Shown here piece after piece: positions 18,128 through 52,488 of a stretch of 52,488 nucleotides of DNA. Each line of letters starts with the position of its first letter. Position 1 is the first letter of the stretch. Origin of the DNA: a virus (Duplodnaviria > Heunggongvirae > Uroviricota > Caudoviricetes); IMG/VR virus record IMGVR_UViG_2537561830_000002. The stretch is one strand, 5' to 3'. The translations under genes and the position numbers were made by a program. A model generated the notes under the pieces. It was not told where the DNA came from, made no database searches, and saw nothing but the letters and a program-made list of their open reading frames with translations.

Positions 18128-18622
18128 ATGGCTGGAACGGCGGGGCGTTCCGGGCGTCGCCCCAAGCCAACGGCGCGCAAGGCGCTGGCCGGAAACCCCG
18201 GCAAGCGAGCCCTGAACAAAGATGAACCTGTTTTTACGCCCATCAAAGGTGTTGAGCCACCGGAGTGGTTCGCAGAAGAAGATCTCCCTCTCGCCACGAT
18301 CATGTGGCAACTGACAACCAAAGAACTCTGCGGTCAGGGCCTGCTGTGCGTGACTGACCTGGCGGTACTTGAGCGGTGGTGCGTGGCCTATGAGTTCTGG
18401 CGACGTGCCGTGAAAAATATTGCCAGCCAGGGCAACACCATCACCGGTGCAATGGGCGGCAGGGTCAAAAACCCGGAGCTGACCGCCAAGAAAGAACAGG
18501 AGTCCGAGATGAGCAGCACGGGGGCAATGCTCGGACTCGACCCCAGCAGCCGCCAGCGTCTGATAGGCCTGGCGGGGCAGAAGAAAGCCACTAACCCGTT
18601 TCTGAAAATCATCGAATCATGA
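18128..18622 (+). CDS. terminase small subunit (P27 family)
   Basis: [34 protein letters not shown]; AGGAG RBS; stop overlaps the large subunit start. Confidence 0.85.
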
Positions 18623-27940: not shown

Positions 27941-28089
27941 CGGCTGAATACCTCACTGATCGCTTCTTTGACTGCGCCAGCTACTGGCGCATTAATCCCT
28001 TCGAATTGCTGAATATGCCGATCAGTGAAATTCCCTTGCTGGTCAGTCAGGCAAACAGGATAGAGCAGGAGAAACGCACACATGGCTGA
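27907..28089 (+). CDS. -1 frame extension of the tail chaperone (frameshift product tail)
   Basis: Slippery heptamer T_TTT_TTC at 27922-27928 in the zero frame; -1 frame open to 28089. Confidence 0.55.
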   Translation: MACGWFFPPGLTAEYLTDRFFDCASYWRINPFELLNMPISEIPLLVSQANRIEQEKRTHG

Positions 28090-29914
28090 ATTTGAGCTTA
28101 AGGCGTTGATCACCGGTGTCGACAGGCTTTCTCCCGCGCTGTCGAAAATGCAAAAGAAAATCCGGGGATTTAAACGCCAGGCGGAAGAGGCGTCACAGGG
28201 TGGGCTGGCGCTTGGTGGCGGACTGGCAGCGGGTCTGACGCTTTCCCTGAAATCTTATGCCGATCAGGAAAACGCCGCCACCGGGCTGAAAGTCGCCATG
28301 ATGGATGCGAACGGCGAGGTCGGAAAGAGCTTTCAGGACATCAATAAACTGGCTATTGGCCTGGGTAACCAGCTACCCGGTACAACGGCTGATTTCCAGA
28401 ACATGATGCAGATGCTGGTGCGTCAGGGGATCCCGGCAGAAAATATTCTTGGCGGTGTGGGTAAAGCGACAGCTTATCTTGCGGTACAACTGAAAAAAAC
28501 ACCGGAAGCGGCTGCTGAGTTTGCTGCAAAGATGCAGGATGCTACCGGAACGGCGTCAGAAGACATGATGGGGCTGTTCGACACTATCCAGAAGGCGTTT
28601 TATCTGGGCGTTGACGATACCAACATGTTGTCCTTCTTCACTAAAACCAGTTCTGTTCTGAAGATGGTGAACAAGGACGGTCTTCAGGCTGCACAGAGCC
28701 TTGCCCCCATCAGCGTCATGATGGATCAGATGGGGATGAACGGGGAGTCGGCAGGTAATGCCCTGCGAAAAGTTATCCAGTCCGGATTAAGCGTTAAGAA
28801 AATCAGGGACGTCAATAAAGTTATGGCCCGTCAGAAACTCGGGGTACAGCTCGATTTTACTGACGGCAAAGGAAGTTTTGGCGGTCTTGATAACATGTTT
28901 AAGCAACTGGCAAAGCTGCGAAAACTTACCGACGTTAAGCGAACAGGTGTACTTAAGGCAATATTTGGTGATGATGCCGAAACCCTTCAGGTGGTCAATG
29001 CGCTGATCGATAAAGGAAAGGATGGTTACGATCAGATCCAGCAAAAGATGAATAAACAGGCCAGCCTGAATAAACGTGTTCAGGCACAGCTTGGTACGCT
29101 GTCCAACCTGTGGGAGGCAATGACGGGGACCGCAACTAACGGCCTTGCGGCTATTGGCGGCGCATTTTCTGGTGACGCCAAAAATATCACGCAATGGCTG
29201 GGGGAGTTGGGGGAAAAATTCACGAAGTTTGCGGATGAAAATCCCCGGGTTATTCGCGGCGTCGTCGGGCTTGCTGCCGGTCTTGCGATTCTGAAACTGG
29301 GATTGATGGGCGTGGGCAGTGCCATCAGCATTGTCAGCAGGATCATGTCGATGACGCCGATTGGCATGATTGCGACGGCGATAGCCCTGGCTGCGGGATT
29401 AATTATCACTAACTGGGATGTTGTCGGACCTTATTTCAAGAAGCTCTGGGAAACCATTGGTCCTTATTTTGAGGCTGGCTGGGAACTCCTTAAGAAAGTT
29501 TTTGCCTGGTCGCCGATGGGGATGGTGATCAATAACTGGGGGCCGGTTGTTAAGTGGTTTCAGGATATGTGGGACAAGCTGAAGCCAATTATTGAGTGGT
29601 TTACCGACAGTTCCGGTGACACGGTCGATGCCATTAACTCTGCGCAGTGGGGCGCGGGTGCTTATGATGCTTATGGGACGGGAATACCGGCACGGGGATA
29701 CACTCCTTATCCGGCGGTGGATCCGGCTCAGGCAAACAACGCCTCCGATGCCACAGGCTCGAATCCCTTCATGATTAATAAAGCTACCGCGCCAAAAGTT
29801 GATGGTGAGATCAAGGTATCATTTATAAATATGCCACCAGGTATGCGGGTTACGGAAACACGCTCCAGTGGCATTGATATAAATCACGATGTTGGCTATA
29901 CCCGATTTTGGTAG
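28082..29914 (+). CDS. tail tape measure protein
   Basis: 610 aa; helical with Gly/Ala-rich hydrophobic segment and Trp-rich C-terminus. Confidence 0.9.
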   Translation: MAEFELKALITGVDRLSPALSKMQKKIRGFKRQAEEASQGGLALGGGLAAGLTLSLKSYADQENAATGLKVAMMDANGEVGKSFQDINKLAIGLGNQLPGTTADFQNMMQMLVRQGIPAENILGGVGKATAYLAVQLKKTPEAAAEFAAKMQDATGTASEDMMGLFDTIQKAFYLGVDDTNMLSFFTKTSSVLKMVNKDGLQAAQSLAPISVMMDQMGMNGESAGNALRKVIQSGLSVKKIRDVNKVMARQKLGVQLDFTDGKGSFGGLDNMFKQLAKLRKLTDVKRTGVLKAIFGDDAETLQVVNALIDKGKDGYDQIQQKMNKQASLNKRVQAQLGTLSNLWEAMTGTATNGLAAIGGAFSGDAKNITQWLGELGEKFTKFADENPRVIRGVVGLAAGLAILKLGLMGVGSAISIVSRIMSMTPIGMIATAIALAAGLIITNWDVVGPYFKKLWETIGPYFEAGWELLKKVFAWSPMGMVINNWGPVVKWFQDMWDKLKPIIEWFTDSSGDTVDAINSAQWGAGAYDAYGTGIPARGYTPYPAVDPAQANNASDATGSNPFMINKATAPKVDGEIKVSFINMPPGMRVTETRSSGIDINHDVGYTRFW

Positions 29915-37344: not shown

Positions 37345-37410
37345 CGTTTATGAAAATGCAGAAATAACGAGCAAATGGCATCATTCCTGCTTTTGTCAGG
37401 GAGATCTACC

Positions 37411-37965
37411 ATGCTTATTGGCTATGTACGTGTGTCAACAAATGACCAGAACACAGATCTACAACGTAATGCGCTGAACTGTGCAGGATGCGAGCTGATT
37501 TTTGAAGACAAGATAAGCGGTACAAAGTCCGACAGACCAGGACTGAAAAAGCTGCTCAGGACATTATCGGCAGGTGACACGCTGGTGGTCTGGAAACTGG
37601 ACCGACTGGGGCGCAGTATGCGGCATCTTGTCGTGCTGGTGGAGGAGTTGCGCGAACGAGGCATCAACTTTCGTAGTCTGACGGATTCAATTGATACCAG
37701 TACCCCAATGGGGCGCTTTTTCTTTCATGTGATGGGTGCCCTGGCTGAAATGGAGCGTGAACTGATTGTTGAACGAACAAAAGCTGGACTGGAAGCAGCT
37801 CGCGCACAGGGACGAATTGGTGGACGTCGCCCCAAACTTACACCAGAACAATGGGAGCAGGCCGGACGATTAATTGCATCAGGCGTTCCTCGCCAGAAGG
37901 TGGCGATCATCTATGATGTTGGTATATCGACACTGTATAAGAAGTTTCCGGTCGGAGATAAATGA
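37411..37965 (+). CDS. serine DNA invertase (Pin/Gin/Hin family)
   Basis: MLIGYVRVSTNDQNTDLQRNAL...LVVWKLDRLGRS...MGRFFFHVMGALAEMERELIVERT; catalytic Ser in GYVRVST. Confidence 0.9.
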   Translation: MLIGYVRVSTNDQNTDLQRNALNCAGCELIFEDKISGTKSDRPGLKKLLRTLSAGDTLVVWKLDRLGRSMRHLVVLVEELRERGINFRSLTDSIDTSTPMGRFFFHVMGALAEMERELIVERTKAGLEAARAQGRIGGRRPKLTPEQWEQAGRLIASGVPRQKVAIIYDVGISTLYKKFPVGDK

Positions 37966-38025: not shown

Positions 38026-38895
<870 letters not shown>

Positions 38896-39030: not shown

Positions 39031-39623
39031 TCTCTCCGCCACTTTATCAATGACTTATCTCCCGACTTCCCGCCTTGCTTTTCCTAAACAGAACAATCGT
39101 AGAATATTCTTGAAGGGTTAGATCGTCACTGTTTTCTGTTCGATACTGTGACATTCAGCACTTGATTCGCTATGGATCTGACAGGAAGGTTTCGAGCGAA
39201 AATCTGCAGTTATTCAGTCGTTTTCTTATCGGTCACCATTATTCTTTTAGACATTGATCCTACAAAGCTGCCGCAAAGTTGGTGGTGGGAACTGAAGTTG
39301 CGTAGAGAAGGGGTCAATACCCGGGGGCAAACATGGGCTGGCAAAAGTGTAGCGGTATTAGGCGCAGCTATTTAGCCTAGTTATGTTTTATGAAAACTTG
39401 ATATCATATAAGTGTCTTACTTATTGGCTGTAAATAAGTTTTTCCTAAGGAATTGTTTCTTGAGTATCATTTGTAACTGTAACGGAATTTATAATCCTTT
39501 GCTTTATTGTTACGGTATTTTTTATCACACCCTATTTTTAGTGGTTTTTTATACTGAAGTTTGGCAAAGTGAACTTTATATACATATACTTCATCCTGGT
39601 TTCAGTTAAATTGGGTGGATGAT

Positions 39624-40367
39624 ATGGCAACTACATGTTCAGTTATATTGATTTTGGAGTCCTTTGATGTTTATTTCGGAAAAGAGATTGTGTTTCTGGA
39701 GAGAGGTTCATCTGTACTTGTCGACTCTAGCTCTAGAGATTTTTTCCTGACATATCCTGAAAGAGTGATAGTGGCGGATTTTGGCGCTGAGTTTATTAGT
39801 CGCTATTTGAAAGCTAATAACTTAAGGGATATTTCTGATTGTAGGGAATATCCATCTTATTTAAAAATAAACTTTGCTGACTTCAGTTTAATTAAAGGAT
39901 TAATTAGTTGGGCTAATCACTGTGCTGAATACATAGAAATTTTTGATGAGTCTATTGCTTTTACATGTCTCTCTGCATTTTCTTCTGAAAAACAATTTGG
40001 AGTATTTCTGTTTGGATGTTTGAAAAGCACAGGGGCTAAAGTTAAAACGATTATTCATACGGATTTATCTGCACCATGGCGTCTTAAGGATATATCATCA
40101 AGATTATATCTCAGCGAAAGTTTACTAAAGAGGAAATTGAAAGAAGAGGGGGTATCATTCAGTAAGATCATACTTGATGAGAGGATGCAAATGGCTGAAT
40201 ATTTACTCAGCACTCGTTGTTATCCTATTAGTAAAGTAGCTAAGGTCTGTGGTTATGCCAGTGTCTCATACTTTACTTATGTATTTAGACGTTATTTTGG
40301 TGTTTCTCCAAGTCAATACTCTCAGAGGAGTTCAGAAAGTAAAATTCTTACTCACCAGGGAATCTGA
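39624..40367 (+). CDS. AraC/XylS-family transcriptional regulator
   Basis: C-terminal double HTH (ISKVAKVCGYASVSYFTYVFRRYFGVSPSQY); AT-rich; alternative GTG start at 39615. Confidence 0.8.
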   Translation: MATTCSVILILESFDVYFGKEIVFLERGSSVLVDSSSRDFFLTYPERVIVADFGAEFISRYLKANNLRDISDCREYPSYLKINFADFSLIKGLISWANHCAEYIEIFDESIAFTCLSAFSSEKQFGVFLFGCLKSTGAKVKTIIHTDLSAPWRLKDISSRLYLSESLLKRKLKEEGVSFSKIILDERMQMAEYLLSTRCYPISKVAKVCGYASVSYFTYVFRRYFGVSPSQYSQRSSESKILTHQGI

Positions 40368-40408
40368 TCATTGTTCTTGCCCCCTTATTTCCAGACAGGG
40401 GGTGTATC

Positions 40409-40636
40409 TTAAGTTAACGTTACCCGCTGACGTCGATATTCTCGCAGAGAGCGATAACCCAACGCACTGTGCGGATGGTTTTCATTGTAATGTTCGATCG
40501 CCACTGCAAGATTATGCAATGCCGTTCTTACATTCGGTTTCGGCATGAACGCGATGTAGTCTTCCTTCATCGTTTTCACGAACCTTTCTGCCATTCCATT
40601 ACTCTGAGGACTGCTGATTGCCCATGAGGAGTACAA
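40409..40636 (-). pseudogene. IS3-family transposase (OrfB) C-terminal remnant
   Basis: [17 protein letters not shown]...[20 protein letters not shown] is an integrase-core C-terminus; no N-terminal part. Confidence 0.7.
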
Positions 40637-40856
40637 TTAAACGGGTTAATCAGTTTCTCCATTTGAAAGAAAAAAGACTTCTGTACTGTTTGATATCACC
40701 GCTATTTTCTTATTTTCTGTGCAGGTCGTAGTGGGACAAAACTGAGACACATAAGGCCTCACAATGGCTTGCAAGGCTTTACATGTTTTGATGTGGTGGG
40801 ACGTGTGAGCGCAGTGTTGATGGGGTAATGCTTTGAATTAGAAGCGGATTCTTATA

Positions 40857-40903
40857 ATTCGTAATGCGAAGGTCGTAGGTTCGACTCCTATTATCGGCAC
40901 CAT
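40857..40903. repeat. attR core: 47-bp direct repeat of the thrW 3' end
   Basis: Exact copy of 1399-1445. Confidence 0.85.
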
Positions 40904-41543
40904 CAACAGAAAACCCCGTAAAAGCTGCATTGTTTAGCATGTTTATCTAACGGTTTGTAACTTCTGTTCTAACGTCCGCTATCACTTACAAACGCCTATA
41001 CGTTGTTATGGGCTTTGGTAGTGTAACACGTATGGGCGAGTAGTTCCCAGGCTCAACCTCGTAACAAGTTCCTTTGAAGCTGGAAGACGTGCCACCGTCT
41101 CTAAACCTTCTACCAAAACTCTTAGCAAGATGTTCCACACCTGGCGCGGTGTCCAATGATGCTACACGTCGTGAGACGTTGCAGAGGATAAACAGGCTAA
41201 ATGATGGGAAGAGTTTTAAGTGCAATAGTGGATCAAAGCCCACCTCTTCAAAACCTAACTTGATCGGGAAAGAATCAAGCTCTAGCACGGTTTCGTCCAC
41301 CGGAGTACAACGGGTGCCTGATAAGAGAAGAACTGCTAAGACTTCATAGCTTTTGTGAAAAAGCCCTTTTTAGTGGATACGCCTACGGCGCTTATTTTTT
41401 GGTATAACCATCAAAGGCGCTTTATGGCTCCTATTGTCTTGAAAATGTATCTTTACTTGTATTGTGTTTTATGCGTAGTCTCCCTGTGTAGTATGTAACT
41501 TGTTAATTTTCATATGAATACAGAGGCAACACGATGAAAAACA

Positions 41544-41696
41544 TTGCAGCTATAAAACGTAATAACCGCAAGATTCACGCTCGTAAGTTCCTGTCTACGC
41601 CAGAGGGAAAAGCCTGGCTAGAGCGTAAACAGCGAGAGAACGAAGAAAGAAAACTCCTTAGTGAGTTGAAATGGCTTAAGGATTGAATCACCAGTA
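41544..41696 (+). CDS. small basic ORF (50 aa), hypothetical
   Basis: AGAGG RBS; Lys/Arg-rich; below the ORF-track cutoff. Confidence 0.35.
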
Positions 41697-42236
41697 GGCG
41701 CATAACACATCCAGCGATCAAAGATGTGTTTATGCGCCTGATAGTGAAATTATTAAAGTTTTTTAGTTAATGTAGCCATTGCATGAACGATGATCGCTAG
41801 TGAATCGATTTTATCTCGAGGGGTAAAATAGATGAGGTATATGATGGTAACAATTACAGCTAAAGTAATTGTGGTTCTGCAGGTTTTTAAAATGGATGAG
41901 ATAAAGCGCATAGATACCCCCTATTGATTTAACAATAGCAAAGTATCATTTATTTTTTATTGCACGCAACATGCAAATTTTCACATATAATAGTTTACTA
42001 TTCACTTTGTATGGTGTCAACAAGATGATGTGTTGTTTTGTTTGATTTGTTCAAGATAATGTTTCATTTTCTCATCTATATAACTTGTGTTTTAGATAAT
42101 TTCACTAATTGTAAAAGTTACGTATTGCTTAATAGCTACCTTTTTATCTGAAATCGGCGCAGACGTGATCAATGTTTAACGCGAAGATCAGCGGCGTCAG
42201 GTCCACGCAGCGACAATTCTCAAATATCAGGAGGCA

Positions 42237-42788
42237 TTACGCTTCCTGCTCTTTCTTAATACGTTGCACTGTCTGTGTGCTGACACTGAAATCTTTTGCT
42301 ACGCTCCGAATTGATCCACCATTCGCGAGAGCGGCAACAATTCCCGCTCGATCAATTGCTTTTCCATTACCACGTTTTGCTATACGCCCAGCTGCCTTAG
42401 CTGCGGCGATCCCTTCACGTTGACGCTCAAGCATCATTTCACGTTCCATTTGTGCCACTGCTGCAAGCACTGTGAGCATCATATTCCCTGCGGGAGAGTT
42501 CTTCCCTGTCTTAAAGTCTTCTTTATGGAAATGCACAGACACGCCGCGCTCTGTTAATTGCTCAACCGTTGCCAGTAGGTCGGCTGTATTACGGCAAAGT
42601 CGATCAATGCTGTGAACATGCAAAACATCACCTTCACGCACATAGTTCATCATTGCCTCAAACTGTGGGCGCTGGGTATTCTTGCCTGACGCTTTATCTT
42701 CAAAGACTTTATCAAGAGTTACTCCAGCTAATTGACGGTCTGTGTTTTGTTGGACAGTCGATACCCTAATGTATCCAATATTAGCCAT
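42237..42788 (-). CDS. small serine recombinase (resolvase/invertase family, 183 aa)
   Basis: MANIGYIRVSTVQQNTDRQ... catalytic Ser motif; C-terminal HTH; GAAGGAAA RBS. Confidence 0.85.
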   Translation of the reverse strand: MANIGYIRVSTVQQNTDRQLAGVTLDKVFEDKASGKNTQRPQFEAMMNYVREGDVLHVHSIDRLCRNTADLLATVEQLTERGVSVHFHKEDFKTGKNSPAGNMMLTVLAAVAQMEREMMLERQREGIAAAKAAGRIAKRGNGKAIDRAGIVAALANGGSIRSVAKDFSVSTQTVQRIKKEQEA

Positions 42789-43296
42789 TTTCATTTTCCT
42801 TCTGTGTTGATTTGTGTGTAGTGATTATTGATCGTGTTGATTAGGTGTGTAAAGGACTTTTTTCACTACGAAATTCGAAGGTTTTTAGTGTGGTGATTTA
42901 GCCTGCTTTATCACTACACGTCTTGCATGAGAATCATGTGGTTACGTTTTGGTAAAATTAGCAAGCTATTAAATAGTGTGTTTATTTTGAAAAAATAATT
43001 TTTTGTTGCATTAAAGAAAACTTGTTCGACAGATAATAGATTGATTTTTAATCAATAATTTCTGATAGTGCTCTGTAAGCCGCATTACACAAGGATTTGC
43101 GAAAGTGATGTAAAAGTGAAGAAAGCTAACATTGCACTTTTTAAGCTACTTTTCATTGAATTTTTAGTATGGAATTACATAAGGATTAATCATCAATTAA
43201 TCTTGAATTTAAGCCTGTTTTAGATGTTTAATTTTGGTAGCAAGAAACACTTTTAGAAGATCATTGCACAGATGTTATGTGATAAATGGATGTAAC

Positions 43297-43349
43297 GGTA
43301 GGTCACTGTGAGCTAGGGGGTAGGTCACTGTGAGCTAGGGGGTAGGTCA
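43297..43349. repeat. 2.4 tandem copies of a 22-bp unit (iteron-like)
   Basis: ggtaggtcactgtgagctaggg repeated head to tail. Confidence 0.7.
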
Positions 43350-43486
43350 ATTTGAACCACAATAAGACTAACGATAATACTAATAATAAAACTAACTATT
43401 AAACTATATAATATAATTCTTTTTTATCTTTATAAGAATAATTATAGGGATACCCGTTAGGGAGTCTAACGACTATCCCTTAATCT

Positions 43487-43514
43487 ATTGGCATTCGCCA
43501 GAACCTTGCACAAG
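43487..43514. repeat. left arm of an imperfect 28-bp inverted repeat
   Basis: attggcattcgccagaaccttgcacaag matches the reverse complement of 43830-43857 at 25 of 28 positions. Confidence 0.5.
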
Positions 43515-43829
43515 TTAGACTGATACTTCTCATAACACATAGTTTTTTGTTTGTTGATGTTAGTTAGTAGATCTATGTTCGCTAATGCCGCTCACAACGA
43601 ATATGTAATCTACTATGTGCAAATAGCCTACGGCTTGCGTAAGGCTAAATAGTCTTGCGCTGTGCGCAGAACGATAATTAACTAACTACCATCTAACGAT
43701 TGAAATTTACTTGTGCAATAACCTGAGCGTAAGCGAATGGTTGTTAGTGTCTATGCGCTGTGCGCTTCAATAGTTCCATTGATGAGGCTTACGCCAATCT
43801 AACGATCATCAATCATCTAAAATAAATTT

Positions 43830-43857
43830 CTTGTGCAATGTTCTGGCGAATGCAATT
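43830..43857. repeat. right arm of the imperfect 28-bp inverted repeat
   Basis: cttgtgcaatgttctggcgaatgcaatt. Confidence 0.5.
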
Positions 43858-44147
43858 AGAGTAGCGTTACCCCTTTGGGGATGCTAACGCATAACTATAG
43901 ATCAACCATCAAACAGACAAAAAAGAAAAATATGGTTTAAAGATGTTAGGTAGTAGATGAGATTCTACCCCTTAAATAAGCCTCTGGCGAGCTAAACAGC
44001 CTCTACATAAGGGAATGTATTGTTTTTATCAAAACCTCGTTAGAACGCATTTTAGAGCGTTTTAGAGAATAAGGAAGAATAGGAGTACTCGTAAGAGCAC
44101 GAATTGCTCGTAAGTGCATGAAAAAGATCGATTTTTTTCGGAAATGG

Positions 44148-44182
44148 TATTGACAAACGTCTCTTTCTGTGCAATAATAGGT
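44148..44182 (+). promoter_or_regulatory. candidate sigma-70 promoter for the small-gene operon
   Basis: TTGACA, 17-nt spacer, AATAAT; about 120 nt upstream of the first ORF. Confidence 0.4.
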
Positions 44183-44302
44183 ATTAGAGGGACAGGAATA
44201 GATTCTTATCCTCTAAATAATTAAACCAATGCACCGCACTTTGAAGCCCAAGGCTTGCAAGGTGTCTTTTTCTTTTAACCAAATAGAATAGGAGGTTAAT
44301 TA

Positions 44303-44485
44303 ATGAAATATTTCACTCCACAGGATGTAGTAGAAGCCTGGAAACGTGGTGAGATCAACCGCTTTAAAGTAAGGATGTATAGAAACACCGCTCGCCGTTG
44401 TGGTTATCCAGAGCGTGAAAAATGCTTTGACGATGCACTAAAAATTATTGATGAACTGCGTAAGGCAGAAGCAGAGAAAGAATAA
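44303..44485 (+). CDS. hypothetical small protein (60 aa)
   Basis: Strong RBS TAGGAGG; AT-rich. Confidence 0.5.
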   Translation: MKYFTPQDVVEAWKRGEINRFKVRMYRNTARRCGYPEREKCFDDALKIIDELRKAEAEKE

Positions 44486-44506
44486 TAACAGGAGAAGGAG
44501 AAAACT

Positions 44507-44674
44507 ATGAGCGAAACCAAGAAACCAATTCCACGCACTTACCTACACGTTGACCCTGAAATTTTCAAGATTTTATTTGCTGAAGCCAAGAAAAGGCAAA
44601 TTATGGTCAGTGATTTGATGTTAGAAATCATTACTGAAGCAGCAGAGAACATCAAACAAAAAAAGGGTAAGTGA
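44507..44674 (+). CDS. small ribbon-helix-helix-like DNA-binding protein (55 aa)
   Basis: Beta-strand-like PRTYLHVD followed by two amphipathic helices; RBS GGAGAAGGAG; assignment by pattern only. Confidence 0.45.
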   Translation: MSETKKPIPRTYLHVDPEIFKILFAEAKKRQIMVSDLMLEIITEAAENIKQKKGK

Positions 44675-44725
44675 TCCTCATTCACTTTAGTAGCGCATTA
44701 AGCGTGATTTATAAGGAGATTTTTA

Positions 44726-45352
44726 ATGATAAACCAGCCAACTTTTACAAAACACTATAACACGTTTGATAATATATCAAAGATTTACTCTAATGAATTT
44801 CCAGAAGGTAAGGTTTTAGATTTATTGCACATTGTTCTTTATTATAGATTTCTTAGTTATCAGGAAAATGGTCTTAATTGTTATGAAAGTCACGAAACAT
44901 TAGCTAAGATTTTTAAGTCTTCACCATCAACAATTAAACGTAAGATAAACGATCTTAAAGAGATGGGATTATTAGAAACATCCCCACATCCTGATCCGTA
45001 TATTTCATCTTTGATTTACAATGCTCTCCCTCTCACAGATGCACATATTACTCCCCCAGGAGAGTCATCACTACCTGATCCTTCTGAGAAAGAAAACGAA
45101 TCTAATGAAATATTGAATGTTTCAGAAATCATCGTTGAAGAAGAAAAACAGGAATCAGAGTTCCCTGAGCGGCCCGAAATTTTTACTTGGCTTCTTTCCC
45201 TTGATAAGAAGAAACCACCGCACGAAGAAACAGAAGATTTTGTAAAACGAGCATTAGATTCAAAGAATATCTATCTTTGTGAAAATGATTTTGACTCTTT
45301 GATAATTGATCTCAAAAGTGAGAGCACAATATATGATTCACTACCCTTTTAA
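44726..45352 (+). CDS. hypothetical protein with winged-helix-like N-terminus and acidic C-terminus (208 aa)
   Basis: AAGGAG RBS; LAKIFKSSPSTIKRKINDLKEMGLLE HTH-like segment. Confidence 0.5.
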   Translation: MINQPTFTKHYNTFDNISKIYSNEFPEGKVLDLLHIVLYYRFLSYQENGLNCYESHETLAKIFKSSPSTIKRKINDLKEMGLLETSPHPDPYISSLIYNALPLTDAHITPPGESSLPDPSEKENESNEILNVSEIIVEEEKQESEFPERPEIFTWLLSLDKKKPPHEETEDFVKRALDSKNIYLCENDFDSLIIDLKSESTIYDSLPF

Positions 45353-45661
45353 GGAGAATAAATGGCTTATAACATCACTATAGGAAACAAAACTATTGAA
45401 ATAACTGAGAGCGGATACCACATTTTAAAAGCTATTTTGGAAATAGAGTTCTCACCGCCGACAGTGGTTAGCTTTTAGGGTTTAGCTCCTATCATCATTT
45501 TTTGGGATTTAACGCTTTCAATAATTGTGTAGGTGGTGCATCGGAAGTCGATCTGATGGCTCATTTAGAATGATACATTAGCTTCTAACAAACGTTCTAA
45601 CTAATAAAATGATGGGCGTATGTATAAGCGCCCAATGAAAATATTCAAAAAAGGAAAAATA

Positions 45662-45865
45662 ATGATTGGCTATATTCAAGAAACACAATTATTTCAGATG
45701 ATCCTGTCTGATGCAAAAAACTATGCTGAGTTAATCCGACTGGCAAAAGAAACAGAAGACTACGAAGCATTAGAGCGTTATCGTGATGAAGTGCTGACGC
45801 TCAAGACACCTTTTAACATCGTATTGAATATGATTAATGATGCATTACAAGGAGAAGCCGCATAA
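45662..45865 (+). CDS. hypothetical small protein (67 aa)
   Basis: AAGGA RBS; helical. Confidence 0.45.
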   Translation: MIGYIQETQLFQMILSDAKNYAELIRLAKETEDYEALERYRDEVLTLKTPFNIVLNMINDALQGEAA

Positions 45866-46173
45866 TGGAAGAAGATATTAGCAATGCAATGGAACAACTT
45901 TTAGATCTGACTATCTCACTACAAACAAGAATAAATCAAGCCTATTCAGATTTATGCGATTACACGCTCTCTCAATGCGTTATTAGCTTAATGAAGGTGA
46001 ATGTAAGCCTTGACGATTTTATCTCTCTGGTGAGCGATTTAGAGCTAATTGAGGACGATGCCAAGATGTGCACTCAAATCATCACAGACACCGCCAGCAC
46101 GTTAAAGGCTGCAAGTGAAGAGATTCAGCAATTAGTAGATGATTTAGCAAAAAGTGCTATTTCTTCTAAGTGA
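45865..46173 (+). CDS. hypothetical acidic protein (102 aa)
   Basis: TAATG coupling to the previous ORF. Confidence 0.5.
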   Translation: MEEDISNAMEQLLDLTISLQTRINQAYSDLCDYTLSQCVISLMKVNVSLDDFISLVSDLELIEDDAKMCTQIITDTASTLKAASEEIQQLVDDLAKSAISSK

Positions 46174-47077
46174 TAATGAAAATCATTTGCATTTATAACG
46201 ATTTCATTATATAATGATATTAGGGGTAGATAAAAAGGTTTTGACTGGTGTTAATCCTTCTACTGTCATAAATCCCTGCATATGGAAGGTGATAGCCTCA
46301 AAGGTTGAGTGGCATTAACCTCTAACAAATATTACCTTCCATCTCTCAAGAAGTTTTAGAATAATCATAACTCCCTCTTTGATTGTTGATTGTTTCTACG
46401 TTGTGTTGATGAATGTTGTTAGGCATTGTGCTTAATTTTGATAAAAGCGGGTAGGTGTTATCTCCTTGCCCTTCCCGCTCTTATTTTTCATCTATGCTTA
46501 TCCTAAAGCTCCTTATTTTGTCAGAAAACATTAAAGAGCCTTACACTGATAGTTATATTTTATAACTATTTACTAACATCATTAAACTATTATTTAATGA
46601 CAGAAGTTAGTAACAGAATAATCTATTAAGTTGTTGTCAAAAACAATCATCTGCATAGCGTTAGCCGCAAGCAGAGAGAGTTTAGCTAAGAATGGTGCAA
46701 TAAACTTTGGAAATATTGATAGCAAAACGGGTTTTATAGAATGCGGATCTATAAGCTTTGGTTGTAAAAACGATTTTCTGAAACGGTAGATTACTGTTGG
46801 TGTAGTTAATCATTATTAAAAATTTAATCTGTGAGTAGATTGGAATAGTGATTCCTTAAAATCTGACTGGTGCATCCACACCATGAAAGATAGCGGTTGG
46901 CCACCGCGCCCCGAATAGATATTCCTGATTGATTCCGCATGTTTTCCTAAGAGCATGTTTTCAGGAGTATCTATTCACCCTTTAAGCATATCATCAAGTA
47001 TATTTAAAAAGTGTATTTGCTGATATGTTTAATCCTCTTATAGTTTAACTTATCAATTATGTAATTGCCCGCACGTT

Positions 47078-47127
47078 AAAGCCCCTTTGCTGGTCAGAAT
47101 TAACCTCTTACGGCATTGGGGCTTTTT
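47078..47127 (+). terminator. candidate terminator (GC stem plus T-run, long loop)
   Basis: aaagcccc...ggggcttttt. Confidence 0.35.
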
Positions 47128-47157
47128 ATTTGTCTGGCACTAACAGGAACGTTATTT

Positions 47158-47355
47158 ATGAAACAAGAAATGATTATCAGCAAAGACGGGGAAACGATGA
47201 TTGTTAGTGATGAAAACCTCATTAAGGTTGCCGCACTGTTGGGAATTACTCCCGAAAGTCTTCGTTCTACCACTGCTCAATTATTTAAATCGGCTGATGC
47301 GGTTAGTCTTGCTGATGCCCTTAAATCTAAAATTAAACAACTGAAAGGAAAATAA
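47158..47355 (+). CDS. hypothetical small protein (65 aa)
   Basis: AGGA RBS; first gene of a compact plus-strand cluster. Confidence 0.45.
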   Translation: MKQEMIISKDGETMIVSDENLIKVAALLGITPESLRSTTAQLFKSADAVSLADALKSKIKQLKGK

Positions 47356-47359
47356 TCTT

Positions 47360-47743
47360 ATGGCTAACCCATATGGAAAATTAAAAGCAGTGAATGCGGA
47401 TAACTCCCGTTCACGCTGTAAGGTAGTAGCTTACGCTGCTGATCCAGTGCTGCAAGATCGCCTCGTCAAACTGGCTTCACCTCTCACTGACGATCTTATT
47501 GTCGGGGCTTTGCTGAAAGCCGATGGCACCAAAGCAACAACCGCATCTGATATTGCTCACATAGTAGTTGAACCGGCTTATGAAGGACAGGAAAGCGTAG
47601 TGGTTGCACATCCTACTTTCGTTATTCTGGCTGAAGATGGGATTGAATTTAACAGCATGGAAAAGGCAAGTGTTATTGCAAAACTGCAATCTCTCGGCTT
47701 TGTAATTGCTAGTTATGAAGAACTTGCGATCCCTACGACTTAA
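47360..47743 (+). CDS. hypothetical phage-like protein (127 aa)
   Basis: Tight spacing with neighbours; AAAGGAAA RBS. Confidence 0.5.
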   Translation: MANPYGKLKAVNADNSRSRCKVVAYAADPVLQDRLVKLASPLTDDLIVGALLKADGTKATTASDIAHIVVEPAYEGQESVVVAHPTFVILAEDGIEFNSMEKASVIAKLQSLGFVIASYEELAIPTT

Positions 47744-47757
47744 CAAGGAAAATAATA

Positions 47758-48789
47758 ATGAATGATTTATCAACATATTTTGGCGTTAATACTGCGGTAG
47801 TAACTCCATTTGCTTATGAGAATGCACTTAATACCCTGATTACTAATCTCGATCTGTTCGATGTGCAATATCATACAGAAAACAGCATTCTTCTTACCGA
47901 CCTGATTGATCAGTTTGTGCAGGTAGCTGGGGAAACCTCACCTTACGCTCAAAGCGACTGGAACGCCTCTAAACGTCAGGAATGGTCAAACAAACTTTTC
48001 CAGATGAAACACGTCGGCAGTATTAACGCTGTTACTTCTCGTGACCTGGAACAATACAGCCGCCAATATCCAAACCGTTCTGATGCTATGCTGGTAGCGG
48101 TTAATGATTTCTCTGAGGCTCATTACCGTTCACACGCAAACCGTGTTGAAGTGGATCTGATTACCGCGCTGCTGGGCCTGAAAGTTGAATCTGAATATGC
48201 CGGACAAGGTGATCTCGACTTCCTCGACGGTCAGGCTAAAACCACGGTACCCGCTATCGACTTTGCATCGACAACTGTTAACCCGTTCCTTGCTATTCGT
48301 AAAGCGGTGCGCTTACAGAGTGAAAAGCTGGGGTCTGGTCTTGCTGCAAAGCGAACTGGTGTAATTATCTTTGCTGCTGGCGCTGCTGCTGATGGTTTGT
48401 CATCTAACCCGCTGATCAGTGACATGGTGAAATATGCAGGCGATGCGAGTGCTACGGCCCTGTTTACCCGTATGGTTGATTCTAACCCAGCCTATGACTC
48501 TTTCCAGATTGGTGGGATCACTGTTATTGATGTGTCAATGTTTCCTGAGATTGTTGCTCACATCGGAGAGAACGGTTTCGCAATTGTTCCGGTAATGGAT
48601 AAAGCGGCACAGTGTTACCAGCTTCATAGCGGCGTTGGTGTGCGTCATGCTGAGTTAGGTCAAGATGCCGTGTTGCATCACCAATATCTAATCAAGGATG
48701 AATTCCAATTCCCATCTGTGGTTACTGAGACATCTTATCTGCCAGTAAACAACATTCCGCAAGCTATCATCTTCGGATCTGCTGCGTAA
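47758..48789 (+). CDS. putative phage structural protein (major capsid or major tail-like, 343 aa)
   Basis: Size, composition and position upstream of a tape-measure-like gene; no direct family match recognised. Confidence 0.5.
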   Translation: MNDLSTYFGVNTAVVTPFAYENALNTLITNLDLFDVQYHTENSILLTDLIDQFVQVAGETSPYAQSDWNASKRQEWSNKLFQMKHVGSINAVTSRDLEQYSRQYPNRSDAMLVAVNDFSEAHYRSHANRVEVDLITALLGLKVESEYAGQGDLDFLDGQAKTTVPAIDFASTTVNPFLAIRKAVRLQSEKLGSGLAAKRTGVIIFAAGAAADGLSSNPLISDMVKYAGDASATALFTRMVDSNPAYDSFQIGGITVIDVSMFPEIVAHIGENGFAIVPVMDKAAQCYQLHSGVGVRHAELGQDAVLHHQYLIKDEFQFPSVVTETSYLPVNNIPQAIIFGSAA

Positions 48790-48940
48790 TAAAGCGTTAA
48801 TAGACGATTCCCCATCGGGGCAATAAGGGTAAAGGGATTAACTAACCTGTAGGCGCAAATACAGTAACGAATCTCTTTGCCCTTTTTGTTTTTCTACTGT
48901 CTACAAACCCAAATAAAAATATATATGTGAGAGAAAACCA

Positions 48941-49138
48941 ATGAATACAGAAAACCCACAATCCTTTATTCTTAAGGCTGTAAAAGAACTGGCAGCTATT
49001 AGCGATGACTCAATAATCAATGTCAGTGCCTTATGCAGAATGCTTTCAATTGATGCAAATAATGTGCGGCAGCGTGTGTTTCAGACTGGGTGCAGCACTT
49101 TTGAGGCAATCCAATATTATTGCTCTAAAAAACAATAA
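48941..49138 (+). CDS. hypothetical small protein (65 aa)
   Basis: GAGAG RBS. Confidence 0.4.
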   Translation: MNTENPQSFILKAVKELAAISDDSIINVSALCRMLSIDANNVRQRVFQTGCSTFEAIQYYCSKKQ

Positions 49139-49172
49139 CAAACAATAATCATAATACAGGGAAACAATTAAC

Positions 49173-51074
49173 ATGTTAGAAATTACCGCCTCACGAATTA
49201 GTAATGTTGTGACATTTACCACTGATTTCAAGAGCTTACAGAAAGCTAAGAATGAAGTGGATAAGCTACAAAAGAAGATGCAGGGGATCAAACCTGTGCA
49301 AGTGGCGGCAGCACGTCAGAAAGATTTACAGAGGCTGGGAAAAGAGATTCAGCGCCAGCATGATCAGCATGTTAAGCGGGCTGTTAAATCTGAGACACAG
49401 GCATCTAAAGCCAGCACTAAACAGAAGCTACAGGAAGCTAAAAACCTCGCTAAAGCACAGGCTAAACAAGCCTCAATTGCTGAAAAGGCAGAGATCAAGC
49501 GCCTTGCATCATATCGCCAGTTACAAGGCATCAAGAACAATTCCCGCTATGGCGAAGGGATGGATATTAAGAAATATCACGATGCTCTACGTTACATTAA
49601 GGAACAAACCCGCCTCTATGAATCCGGCGCTATATCGCAAGCGAAGATGAATGCCCTGATCCGTGACCGCATCACATTAGAAAGACGAGCCGCAGCCGCT
49701 GCTACGCGTCGTAATGCTGCCGCTGGGGGTGTATATCCAGTTACTTCTAAGAAGCTCCACAAAGAAGGTGTTAGCGGCGGTGGCGCGTTAATGATGGGCG
49801 GTGTTGGTGGCATTATCGGCGGCGCTGCCGTTGGCTTAGGAAGTATGGCTGTATCTGCTGGAATGGAAAAAGCCCGTGAACGTATGGAATTGCAGAAGAT
49901 GAGCGATCTGGTAGGCGCAGACTCCAACCAGGTGGCTGCAATGGTTAATTGGGGGAGGGCAAACGGTGTATCAAGTGCAAGCGTGGACAAGACCACTGAC
50001 AATATCAAAGACTTAAACGAACGCATTGGTCATCAAAGCCGAACTGCTGAATGGGATAGTAAGAAAAAAGAGTGGCGAGGCGGGGAAGGATCATTAAATG
50101 ATATTCAGAATGCCTTTGCATGGAACAAAGATAAGATAGCTTCCTACCAGGGGCGACCGCTGCAACTCCTGCAAGACGTGGTGAGAGAAGGTGAACGCCG
50201 AGGAATGACTAAAGAAGCCATCATATCCCTGATCGAACCATTAGCAGACGATGCCAGCCATTATCTCAAGATGTTTTCCCGTGATGGGGAAGAGTTCCGT
50301 AAAACGATGGTTGATATGGAAAACAACGGGCAGCTACTGACAGAAGCACAGAAAGAGCAATATCGCGCAGCTAACAAGACAGCTACAGCCTTTGACCGTC
50401 TGACAGATGGACTATCGAATCAGGCTATTTTGGGCTTCTTTGATGGCATAGCCAACATGCCAGCACTCAAACCGGAAGAAAGCAAAGCCTTACAGAATGC
50501 AGCTTATGGTGTTGGTGCATCGTTCGGGGATTTGGCTAAACAAGGCGCTGTATTACTGACCTCTATGACTTCTTACGGGAATCAAATCACAAGCTGGATT
50601 AATAAACATCTTAGCCGTGGTGAGAATGATAACCGACCTGAGACACAAAAGGTTATGGACGCTGTTACAGATGGGGAATGGTCGCCATCAACGATTATCA
50701 ATGAAGGTATTCGTTATGCAACTGGACTCGATACGAAAGATGTAGGGCGTATTGTGCGCGGTGAGGAAACACAGTCCGGCGTTCCAGGGTGGTGGACTGA
50801 TTTAATTAATGGCAATGCTAACAGCTACGGATCAACCCTTGTTGCACGTAAAGCAGAAGCCTATCAGCCGACTGTAAGCCTACAACGTCAATACGCAACT
50901 CCTGTTAACGTGAATGCACAGGTTACGGTGCCGAGTGATATGATCTCTGTTAACGTCATCCCTAACGGTCCCGGCTTTCAGGATTTAATCCGCACTGAGA
51001 TCAGAGCGAACAACAATCAGTTTAGTTCGAATCTGATTCTTAGCACGTTGTCAGGACAGAGTAGCGTTAACTAA
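49173..51074 (+). CDS. tape-measure-like protein (633 aa)
   Basis: Long helical Lys/Ala/Gln-rich N-terminus, Gly-rich hydrophobic block GGGALMMGGVGGIIGGAAVGLGSMAVSAG. Confidence 0.6.
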   Translation: MLEITASRISNVVTFTTDFKSLQKAKNEVDKLQKKMQGIKPVQVAAARQKDLQRLGKEIQRQHDQHVKRAVKSETQASKASTKQKLQEAKNLAKAQAKQASIAEKAEIKRLASYRQLQGIKNNSRYGEGMDIKKYHDALRYIKEQTRLYESGAISQAKMNALIRDRITLERRAAAAATRRNAAAGGVYPVTSKKLHKEGVSGGGALMMGGVGGIIGGAAVGLGSMAVSAGMEKARERMELQKMSDLVGADSNQVAAMVNWGRANGVSSASVDKTTDNIKDLNERIGHQSRTAEWDSKKKEWRGGEGSLNDIQNAFAWNKDKIASYQGRPLQLLQDVVREGERRGMTKEAIISLIEPLADDASHYLKMFSRDGEEFRKTMVDMENNGQLLTEAQKEQYRAANKTATAFDRLTDGLSNQAILGFFDGIANMPALKPEESKALQNAAYGVGASFGDLAKQGAVLLTSMTSYGNQITSWINKHLSRGENDNRPETQKVMDAVTDGEWSPSTIINEGIRYATGLDTKDVGRIVRGEETQSGVPGWWTDLINGNANSYGSTLVARKAEAYQPTVSLQRQYATPVNVNAQVTVPSDMISVNVIPNGPGFQDLIRTEIRANNNQFSSNLILSTLSGQSSVN

Positions 51075-51147
51075 GTTTAACGATAACTAATAATAAAGCG
51101 GGGGCAATATTTATTGCTTTCCGCTCATTACACAAGGATTAATATAA

Positions 51148-51439
51148 ATGGTTATCAAAGAAAGTCAGATCAACAGCACATCTAACATTAATACATCTAA
51201 CAGCAAGGTTAAATCTGATAACGGATTTGCCATTATATGTAGCAACCTGAATAACGAAAATGCATCAACGATAGCCAGTTATAAAGCTATTACTTTTGAC
51301 GCTGTTCCGGCAACTAAGGTTTCACGTTCTGCCGATGTTACATCGTATCCTGTGCAGGATGGTAATGATGTATCTGATAATGTCAGGATCAAGAATAATA
51401 AACTTATGCTTTCAGGCATTATTACAGAAACACCATTAG
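51148..51439 (+). pseudogene. tail-protein-like gene truncated by IS5 insertion
   Basis: ORF runs into the IS5 left end at 51440; only about 97 codons of native sequence. Confidence 0.5.

Positions 51440-52488
<1,049 letters not shown>

What the first reader, a model, noticed from the sequence alone, without database searches (positions are those of the whole stretch)
41400..51439. Second AT-rich island downstream of attR: recombinase, repeats, small-gene operon and phage-like structural genes, truncated by IS5
Seen: immediately beyond the prophage attR the composition becomes strongly AT-rich. The island holds a 183-aa serine recombinase (minus strand), a 1.5-kb gene-poor region dense in tandem and inverted repeats, a plus-strand operon of small proteins (including an RHH-like one and a winged-helix-like one), then a cluster with a 343-aa structural-like protein and a 633-aa tape-measure-like protein, ending in a tail-like gene cut by IS5. 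No tyrosine integrase or second thrW repeat is visible within the window. Inference: a degenerate or tandemly accreted phage-derived or phage-plasmid/satellite-like element of different origin from the thrW prophage.
Basis: partly seen in the sequence, partly recalled or inferred. Interest (0 to 1): 0.6.

Follow-up and report, generated by a model that had tools for sequence, protein, structure and literature searches.

The report
Damaged copy of a predicted phage satellite

Summary
Beyond the prophage attR (47-bp thrW repeat, 40857-40903) lies a separate AT-rich element. It holds a small serine recombinase, a 1.5-kb non-coding stretch with repeats, a small-gene operon with a winged-helix Rep-like protein, an HK97-fold major capsid protein (343 aa), a tape-measure protein (633 aa) and a Dit-like baseplate gene cut by IS5 at 51439/51440.

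Intact relatives are 12.7-14.3 kb. They are bounded by 20-23-bp tRNA repeats and end in a tyrosine integrase. They occur in 744 of 5,426 complete E. coli genomes and in about ten other enterobacterial genera.

The tail genes resemble only those of virulent ~150-kb Stephanstirmvirinae phages (baseplate 64%, tape measure 32% identity). Four such phages carry a nuclease whose DNA-binding domains were copied from the island's Rep-like gene.

This is the putative satellite family of Barth, Dunham and Seed 2023 (PMC10448857). The first 255 nt of one of their listed elements match window 40981-41235 exactly. It is therefore already known, though only by computation.

This copy is degraded by IS5 and a 490-bp deletion. 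Two additions here: both DNA-binding domains of the phage nuclease have satellite counterparts, and candidate origin repeats change with the Rep allele.

The parts
40857..40903 (+). 47-bp copy of the thrW 3' part. It is the attR of the upstream prophage and also the proximal (attL-side) boundary of the island.
   Evidence: 100% match to thrW nt 31-77. In C8 the island starts at thrW itself.
40981..41235 (+). Conserved left end of the element, non-coding or of unknown coding status.
   Evidence: Exact 255-nt match to the start of the CP023349.1 satellite sequence in Table S6 of PMC10448857.
41534..41686 (+). 50-aa ORF conserved in relatives, function unknown.
   Evidence: Annotated in C8 and C6 (WP_000788776). 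Homologues at 74-78% identity in Citrobacter, Kluyvera and Raoultella elements.
41753..41911 (-). 52-aa ORF, function unknown.
   Evidence: Annotated in C8 and C6. No Pfam hit.
42237..42794 (-). Small serine recombinase of the resolvase/invertase type.
   Evidence: Pfam Resolvase 1e-38 and phrog_125 2e-62. 100% identical in the tRNA-Gly variant L007. Flagged 'Resolvase' in Table S6 for a close relative.
43297..43445 (.). Candidate replication origin: three 22-nt direct repeats (GGTAGGTCACTGTGAGCTAGGG, third copy degenerate) followed by an AT-rich block.
   Evidence: Different repeat sets occupy the same position in elements with different Rep-like alleles. The origin function is inferred.
43481..43863 (.). 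Segment bounded by 34-nt inverted repeats (88% complementary). Function unknown; no evidence that it inverts.
   Evidence: A synthetic flipped query found no flipped copy in 695 genomes. 86% conserved in L007. No Rfam match.
44150..44178 (+). Sigma-70-type promoter-like site (TTGACA, 17 nt, TG, AATAAT) upstream of the small-gene operon.
   Evidence: 11-of-12 consensus match. Consensus match only.
44303..44485 (+). 60-aa protein, the most conserved small gene of the family, function unknown.
   Evidence: 60-82% identical across variants, dN/dS 0.07-0.17.
44507..44674 (+). 55-aa protein, possible small DNA-binding regulator. The same gene is present in phages inny and muut.
   Evidence: 98% identical to inny_185 and muut gp095 at DNA and protein level. 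No family hit.
44726..45352 (+). 208-aa winged-helix Rep-like protein (RepA_N-type in the 2023 paper), the presumed replication initiator.
   Evidence: HTH_36 and replication-initiator PHROGs. 36% identical to domain 1 of the phage nuclease inny_184. The allele is distinct from those captured by phages.
45470..45603 (+). 3' remnant of a conserved ~127-aa gene, left by a 490-bp deletion relative to C8.
   Evidence: Window lacks L001 22108-22597. The full-length gene is conserved in L007, C6 and Klebsiella.
45620..46173 (+). Two small ORFs (81 or 67 aa, and 102 aa) of unknown function.
   Evidence: No family hits.
47116..47355 (+). 79-aa ORF (65 aa in the C8 annotation), first gene of the structural block, preceded by a terminator-like hairpin.
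   Evidence: 59% identical in L007. A hairpin precedes this gene in all four variants examined.
47360..47743 (+). 127-aa protein in the position of a head-decoration gene.
   Evidence: Same order and size as phAPEC8 gp115, which precedes the capsid gene. Conserved across genera at 42-70% identity. Fold not confirmed: model pLDDT 46, no sequence hit. The paper labels it Dec from HHsearch.
47758..48789 (+). 343-aa HK97-fold major capsid protein of the lambda gpE family.
48941..49138 (+). 65-aa ORF directly upstream of the tape measure, possible chaperone.
   Evidence: A ~62-67-aa gene occupies this slot in all variants. Function inferred from position only.
49173..51074 (+). 633-aa tail tape-measure protein.
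   Evidence: phrog_16051 at 3.6e-72. Residues ~197-632 are 32-34% identical to tape measures of Stephanstirmvirinae phages.
51148..51439 (+). 5' part (97 codons) of the Dit-like baseplate / tail-tube-initiator gene, cut by IS5.
   Evidence: The intact 218-aa C8 homologue hits PF21821 at 5e-28 and is 64% identical to phAPEC8 gp103. Junction shown.
51440..52488 (+). IS5, running off the end of the window.
   Evidence: IS5 terminal repeat GGAAGGTGCGAACAAG at 51440. Transposase hits DDE_Tnp_1 at 1.6e-35.

Best explanation
The region is a damaged member of a family of ~13-kb integrative elements of E. coli and other Enterobacteriaceae. Barth, Dunham and Seed (2023) predicted this family to be satellites of virulent phi92/phAPEC8-like myoviruses (Stephanstirmvirinae).

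Shown here:
- The element is discrete. It integrates at tRNA genes by a distal tyrosine integrase, giving 20-23-bp direct repeats.
- It carries a Rep-like DNA-binding protein next to allele-specific direct repeats and an AT-rich block.
- It encodes its own capsid protein, a decoration-position protein, a tape measure and a Dit-like baseplate protein.
- It has no terminase, portal, protease, neck, sheath or tube genes.
- Its tail genes resemble only those of Stephanstirmvirinae.
- Four such phages carry a nuclease whose DNA-binding domains were recently copied from the element's Rep-like gene.

Inferred:
- On infection by such a phage the element excises and replicates from the repeat-bearing origin using Rep plus borrowed replication proteins.
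- It uses its own capsid and tail-core proteins together with the phage's remaining virion proteins to make particles for itself, at the phage's expense.
- Phages answer with an Odn-like origin-directed nuclease.
- Elements escape by swapping the Rep allele together with its repeats.

The copy in this window is older than the prophage that later inserted at thrW. It is probably immobile: IS5 sits in the baseplate gene, a conserved ~127-aa gene is deleted, and no integrase or distal att site is in view.
For: Identity with the published family
- Exact 255-nt match of window 40981-41235 to a Table S6 element.
- The close relative ZJ3920 (96.7% identity over 90% of the region) is listed in Table S6.
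- The paper's description matches gene for gene.

Discreteness and mobility
- In C8 the element lies alone next to thrW with an integrase and att repeat.
- Four intact elements measure 12,689-14,263 bp and have tRNA repeats.
- They use thrW and tRNA-Gly(ccc) sites in E. coli, Klebsiella, Citrobacter and Raoultella.
- 744 of 5,426 E. coli genomes have a match.
- The same gene order recurs in ten further species.

Selection
- All ORFs are intact in four deeply diverged variants. dN/dS is 0.17-0.27 where synonymous change is not saturated.

Link to Stephanstirmvirinae
- The Dit-like protein is 61-64% identical to theirs and under 32% to anything else.
- The tape measure hits 134 phage records, almost all ~145-155-kb phages of this group.
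- Gene order matches phAPEC8: decoration, capsid, small ORF, tape measure, gp103.

Conflict with phages
- inny_184 is made of a C6-type Rep N-domain (97.8% nt), an L007-type Rep N-domain (90.8% nt) and a T5orf172/GIY-YIG-type nuclease.
- The Odn precedent is experimentally established in ICP1/PLE.

Origin
- Three Rep alleles pair with three different repeat sets at the same position.
Against: - No experiment shows excision, replication, packaging or interference for any member. The 2023 description is also purely computational.
- No packaging-site similarity to the phages was found.
- No circular or virion-derived copy was found.
- How a capsid protein only ~20-23% identical to the phage's would work with the phage's portal, protease and terminase is unexplained. 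So is the benefit of a private tape measure.
- The decoration assignment rests on position and on the paper's HHsearch, not on anything confirmed here.
- The Rep-like protein only reaches Pfam HTH_36 at the cut-off.
Confidence: 0.75

Rival explanations
1. It is a non-transducing anti-phage island. The capsid, tape-measure and Dit homologues act as poison subunits that spoil head and tail assembly of Stephanstirmvirinae phages, protecting the population. The element spreads by other means.
For: - The structural genes are partial sets that cannot build a particle alone.
- They resemble the phage's interacting parts most closely at the baseplate (64%).
- Phages carry a counter-measure directed at the element.
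- The Rep module also occurs in an island with GmrSD and no structural genes.
- Tail-assembly interference is a known defence theme in satellites (PMC11364771 abstract).
Against: - No hit to any PADLOC defence model.
- The narrow size range of 12.7-14.3 kb and a private capsid gene are what packaging into a small head would predict.
- Defence and satellite life-style are not exclusive: PLE does both.
Confidence: 0.18
2. It is a decayed remnant of an ordinary prophage that lost most of its genes.
For: It has phage-like structural genes and an integrase at a tRNA site. This particular copy carries IS5 and a deletion.
Against: - The same compact gene set and order recur in many genera and at different tRNA sites.
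- ORFs are intact and under purifying selection.
- The nearest phage relatives are strictly virulent 150-kb phages, not temperate ones.
Confidence: 0.03
3. It is a phase-variable element. The serine recombinase flips the segment bounded by the 34-nt inverted repeats to switch the downstream operon on and off.
For: A Hin/Gin-type invertase (phrog_125 at 2e-62) lies next to a 383-bp segment with 34-nt inverted repeats, upstream of the operon.
Against: - None of 695 genomes carries the flipped arrangement.
- The strong promoter-like site lies outside the segment.
- Variants without this recombinase, or with a tyrosine recombinase in the same slot, exist.
Confidence: 0.03

Closest known systems
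[quoted passage not shown] 8 and Table S6)
   Same: It is the same element family.
- It lies next to a tRNA gene.
- It has the Rep (RepA_N-type), capsid, decoration, tape-measure and baseplate genes.
- It has the optional serine recombinase.
- It lacks terminase, protease, alpA and Pri-Rep.
- Its left end matches a listed element exactly over 255 nt.
   Different: - This copy is cut by IS5, lacks 490 bp of a conserved gene, and shows no integrase or distal att in the window.
- Its Rep allele is not one matched by any phage nuclease in the phage collection.
PLE of Vibrio cholerae and its helper ICP1, with ICP1 Odn
   Same: - It works alike in outline: an ~13-18-kb island tied to one virulent ~125-150-kb myovirus.
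- It has a Rep plus iteron origin with swappable alleles.
- The phage has a nuclease built from a captured Rep DNA-binding domain and a T5orf172 domain.
   Different: - No sequence relationship of the elements was seen.
- PLE remodels ICP1's own coat protein with an external scaffold (PDB 8g1r title; PMC10945586 abstract). This family carries its own capsid protein and also a tape measure and a Dit-like gene.
- PLE is experimentally proven. This family is not.
Capsid-forming PICIs (cf-PICIs)
   Same: Both are small integrative elements that encode their own HK97-fold capsid protein.
   Different: - No alpA, Pri-Rep, terminase, portal, protease or head-tail adaptor genes were found here.
- cf-PICIs carry no tape measure or baseplate gene and use temperate helpers.
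Structural module of phAPEC8 and phi92 (Stephanstirmvirinae)
   Same: - Same order: decoration, major capsid, small ORF, tape measure, Dit-like gp103 (phi92 gene 135).
- Identities are 64% (Dit-like), 32% (tape measure) and 23% (capsid).
   Different: - The island lacks the ~10 genes lying between and around these (neck, sheath, tube, chaperone, hub, spike, fibres).
- It also lacks all replication, packaging and lysis genes of the 150-kb phage.

Membership tests
Barth et al. 2023 putative E. coli satellites | Sequence identity to listed elements | tested here: met
   The first 255 nt of the CP023349.1 entry in Table S6 match window 40981-41235 exactly. The listed ZJ3920 element matches the region at 96.7% over 90%.
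Barth et al. 2023 putative E. coli satellites | Rep protein whose N-terminal DNA-binding domain is homologous to that of the phage T5orf172 nucleases | tested here: met
   o208 residues 10-122 are 36% identical to inny_184 residues 30-140 (E 8e-14). Short 93-97% nucleotide patches are shared with inny and Mt1B1_P17. The allele is not the cognate of any known phage nuclease.
Barth et al. 2023 putative E. coli satellites | Own major capsid protein and decoration protein | tested here: inconclusive
   The capsid protein is confirmed. The decoration protein is supported only by position and size; the fold could not be confirmed.
Barth et al. 2023 putative E. coli satellites | Tape-measure protein and a baseplate component, but no other tail genes | tested here: met
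   phrog_16051 at 3.6e-72. Dit_like PF21821. No other tail family among the ORFs.
Barth et al. 2023 putative E. coli satellites | Flanked by att repeats next to a tRNA gene, with a tyrosine integrase at one end | tested here: inconclusive
   The proximal thrW repeat is present at 40857-40903. The integrase and distal repeat are not in the window because IS5 and the window end intervene. They are present in C8, C6, L007 and Klebsiella relatives.
Phage satellite (functional definition) | Helper-dependent excision, replication, packaging and transfer | not testable with these tools
   No experimental data exist for any member. No circular or virion-derived contigs were found.
cf-PICI | alpA, Pri-Rep, small and large terminase, portal, prohead protease and head-tail adaptors alongside the capsid gene | tested here: not met
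   None detected by Pfam or PHROGs in any island ORF. No unassigned ORF is long enough for a portal or large terminase.
P4-like satellites | Alpha primase-helicase, sid, psu, delta and a cos site | tested here: not met
   No primase or helicase, and no Sid or Psu family hit. A cos site was not searched for specifically.
PLE | Homology to Vibrio PLE genes (RepA, TcaP, CapR, NixI and others) | not tested
   No PLE sequences were compared directly. The resemblance is functional only.
Hin/Gin-type invertible switch | Segment between inverted repeats found in both orientations | tested here: not met
   None of 695 genomes carries the flipped form.

The most novel reading that the evidence does not exclude
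The family would be a mechanistically new class of satellite. It would supply its own capsid shell and tail core (tape measure plus tube initiator) and take everything else from a virulent 150-kb phage.

It would be locked in a replicon-swapping arms race with phages whose nucleases carry two captured Rep DNA-binding domains, each aimed at a different satellite origin type.

The second half goes beyond the 2023 paper, which reported no satellite counterpart for the second domain. Here that domain is 90.8% nucleotide-identical to the Rep gene of the tRNA-Gly-integrated variant, and the match starts 3 nt after the first captured block ends.

The window's own Rep and repeat allele has no matching phage nuclease among 50,697 phage records. 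It could be an escape allele.
Probability: 0.45. Interest if true: 0.65.

Novelty: already known. Interest (0 to 1): 0.35.

Why it matters
If these elements are working satellites, E. coli and its relatives carry a PLE-like parasite of a major group of therapeutic-candidate lytic phages (phAPEC8 and phi92 relatives). About one complete E. coli genome in seven has some match to the element. That would affect phage host range and phage-therapy choices, and would give a tractable E. coli model for satellites of virulent phages.

For this window the practical message is annotation. The region is a second, older, damaged mobile element at thrW. It is neither part of the prophage nor random phage debris.

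Tried and rejected
- Invertible switch. A synthetic query with 43481-43863 flipped found no genome with that arrangement.
- Structured RNA in the non-coding stretches. No Rfam match at E <= 1 over 40500-51600.
- Packaging-site mimicry. Sensitive blastn of 42795-47360 against 50,697 phage records found only the o55/o208 patch.
- Relation to the yagK-intF end of K-12 CP4-6, also at thrW. No protein similarity.
- Adjacent prophage as source or helper. No similarity except invertases at 41%.
- Known defence systems. No PADLOC or NCBIfam hit for the structural genes.
- Free or packaged forms. IMG/VR hits are prophage calls from isolate genomes. The island-sized Phytobacter and Kluyvera contigs have no terminal overlap.
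- Fold of the 127-aa protein. The single-sequence model has pLDDT 46 and is unusable, and the profile hits to PDB are spurious.
- Shared late-promoter motif between the island and phAPEC8 intergenic regions. Nothing convincing by eye; only terminator-like hairpins in equivalent places.
- What lies beyond IS5. No genome in the collection shares the junction.
- Several literature searches on satellite and phage-group terms missed the prior paper. It surfaced only with the term T5orf172.

Full report
**What is in the window**

The window is E. coli. tRNA-Thr(CGT), thrW, lies at 1369-1444. It is followed by a tyrosine integrase and a complete-looking myovirus prophage with large terminase, portal, capsid, sheath and tape measure.

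A perfect 47-bp copy of the thrW 3' part at 40857-40903 closes that prophage. From there to the IS5 end at 51440 the sequence is a separate element. GC falls to 0.35-0.41 over 41-48 kb and is 0.46-0.47 over the structural genes.

The true left boundary is about 40904, not 41400.

**It is a discrete mobile element**

- Megablast finds the region in 744 of 5,426 complete E. coli genomes, 86 of them with at least 80% coverage.
- In strain C8 the element sits directly beside thrW with no prophage. It ends with a 425-aa tyrosine integrase (Phage_integrase plus DUF6538) and a thrW repeat, just before yagP/paoD.
- Four intact elements are bounded by 20-23-bp repeats of a tRNA 3' end and measure 12,905, 13,252, 14,263 and 12,689 bp.
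- They lie at thrW or tRNA-Gly(CCC).
- The window copy matches C8 at 94-99% up to the IS5 junction. It lacks 490 bp that include most of a conserved ~127-aa gene.
- The prophage lies between thrW and the island, so it probably integrated later (inference).

**Gene content**

- The 343-aa protein is a major capsid protein. Homologues at 42-49% identity in Klebsiella, Citrobacter, Cronobacter and Enterobacter carry Pfam Phage_cap_E, and 11 of 15 aligned members hit it.
- A profile search of PDB gives a capsid protein (E 0.0097) and phi92 gp124 (E 0.67).
- The 633-aa protein hits tape-measure phrog_16051 at 3.6e-72.
- The last gene is Dit-like.
- The 208-aa protein is winged-helix with replication-initiator PHROG hits.
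- No terminase, portal, protease, neck, sheath or tube gene is present.
- The 127-aa protein sits where a decoration gene would be, but I could not confirm its fold.

**Link to one phage group**

- The tape measure's C-terminal two-thirds is 32-34% identical to tape measures of ~150-kb virulent Stephanstirmvirinae (phAPEC8 and phi92 relatives).
- The Dit-like protein is 61-64% identical to theirs and under 32% to anything else.
- The gene order mirrors phAPEC8: decoration, capsid, small ORF, tape measure, gp103.
- A 240-bp patch covering the 55-aa gene is 96-98% identical in phages inny and muut.

**The phage counter-measure**

- The next phage gene, inny_184, has two winged-helix domains and a C-terminal T5orf172/GIY-YIG-type endonuclease.
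- Its first 162 residues are 96% identical to the Rep-like protein of a thrW element in strain C6. The nucleotide match is 97.8% over positions 12-723, and up to 99% in strain 135.
- Residues 160-267 are 75% identical to the Rep-like protein of the tRNA-Gly variant. The nucleotide match is 90.8% and starts 3 nt after the first block ends.
- Only four distinct phages carry such a gene: inny, muut, Mt1B1_P17 and BI-EHEC. Their first domains differ from one another.
- This is the architecture of ICP1 Odn, which cuts the PLE origin at its iterons.

**Candidate origin**

Just upstream of a shared AT-rich block, elements with different Rep alleles carry different repeats:

| Element | Repeat set |
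|---|---|
| Window and C8 | GGTAGGTCACTGTGAGCTAGGG, three copies |
| tRNA-Gly variant (L007) | TTCCTACCTACCCAAGAAATGAG, 2.3 copies |
| C6 and strain 135 | five GTAACG-N5-GTTAC palindromes |
| Klebsiella | a 32-nt repeat |

The window's Rep allele is only 29-36% identical to any phage nuclease domain.

**Family breadth and selection**

- The same order (Rep-like, ~125 aa, ~345 aa, ~65 aa, ~620 aa, optional Dit, integrase) occurs in Klebsiella, Citrobacter, Buttiauxella, Phytobacter, Kluyvera, Scandinavium and Raoultella, and more distantly in Yersinia.
- ORFs are intact throughout. dN/dS is 0.17-0.27 where measurable.
- Modules are shuffled. C6 and C8 share a 99%-identical integrase, but their capsid proteins are only 19% identical.
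- The window and the tRNA-Gly variant share a 100%-identical recombinase, but their capsid proteins are 56% identical.

**Prior knowledge**

Barth, Dunham and Seed (2023; PMC10448857) already reported the Inny, Muut and Mt1B1_P17 nucleases as odn homologues. They traced them to 224 putative E. coli satellites with capsid, decoration, tape-measure and baseplate genes, tRNA-adjacent att sites, a tyrosine integrase and sometimes a serine recombinase.

The first 255 nt of one Table S6 entry equal window 40981-41235. A close relative of the window's element is also listed.

The work is computational, and I found no follow-up. A December 2025 commentary on satellite diversity does not list this family.

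**Verdict**

The satellite mechanism remains inferred. The main rival is a non-transducing defence island that uses poison subunits. A prophage remnant and an invertible switch are effectively excluded.

Small additions here:
- the satellite counterpart of the second nuclease domain
- a fourth phage carrying the nuclease
- allele-specific origin repeats
- spread of the family beyond Escherichia

Noticed in passing
L002 3233-4336 (phage inny gene 184) versus L007 6183-6443: The second DNA-binding domain of the phage nuclease is 90.8% nucleotide- and 75% amino-acid-identical to the Rep-like gene of the tRNA-Gly-integrated element. The 2023 paper states that this second domain has no detectable satellite counterpart.
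   Followed up: yes
L010 1781-9982 (E. coli strain 135, NZ_CP080260): The recombinase, non-coding stretch, o60/o55 and Rep-like module occurs without any structural genes in a different island. That island carries a GmrSD-type restriction gene and is inserted at the thiM TPP riboswitch, which is duplicated at both ends.
   Followed up: partly
window 1399-40903: A complete-looking myovirus prophage lies at thrW: integrase 1459-2622, large terminase 18619-20352, portal, capsid, sheath and tape measure 28082-29914. It is bounded by 47-bp thrW repeats and is unrelated to the island.
   Followed up: partly
window 37375-37965 and 38026-38850: The prophage's distal end has its own Hin-type invertase (Resolvase at 1.6e-51), 41% identical to the island's recombinase. 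Next to it is a minus-strand 274-aa protein with a LEM-3-like GIY-YIG nuclease domain.
   Followed up: no
window 39615-40636: Just inside the prophage attR is an AT-rich AraC-type regulator gene (39615-40367). It is followed by a 75-aa fragment of an IS3-family transposase (rve_3 at 6.6e-16, 40409-40636, minus strand).
   Followed up: no
window 43481-43514 / 43830-43863: A 34-nt inverted repeat flanks a 315-nt spacer rich in TCTAACGA and CTTGTGCAAT motifs. It is 86% conserved in the tRNA-Gly variant and mostly absent from C6-type elements. It does not invert in 695 genomes, and its role is unexplained.
   Followed up: partly
L001 26290-28190 (strain C8): The tape-measure gene is annotated as two ORFs (205 and 427 aa) in C8 but is a single 633-aa ORF in the window. 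This suggests a frameshift in C8, so 'intact' reference copies can carry their own lesions.
   Followed up: no
NZ_CP126937 and NZ_CP126938 (APEC E19019; hits H10, H13): This strain shows the element both on the chromosome and on a 166-kb record labelled plasmid, with several IS3-family insertions. This could be a second copy or an assembly artefact.
   Followed up: no
window 47040-47115, 48790-48940 and 51075-51147; same positions in L007, L009 and L004: Terminator-like hairpins precede the structural block and follow the capsid and tape-measure genes in all variants. phAPEC8 has terminators annotated after its capsid and tape-measure genes. The structural genes therefore look like separately controlled units.
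   Followed up: partly
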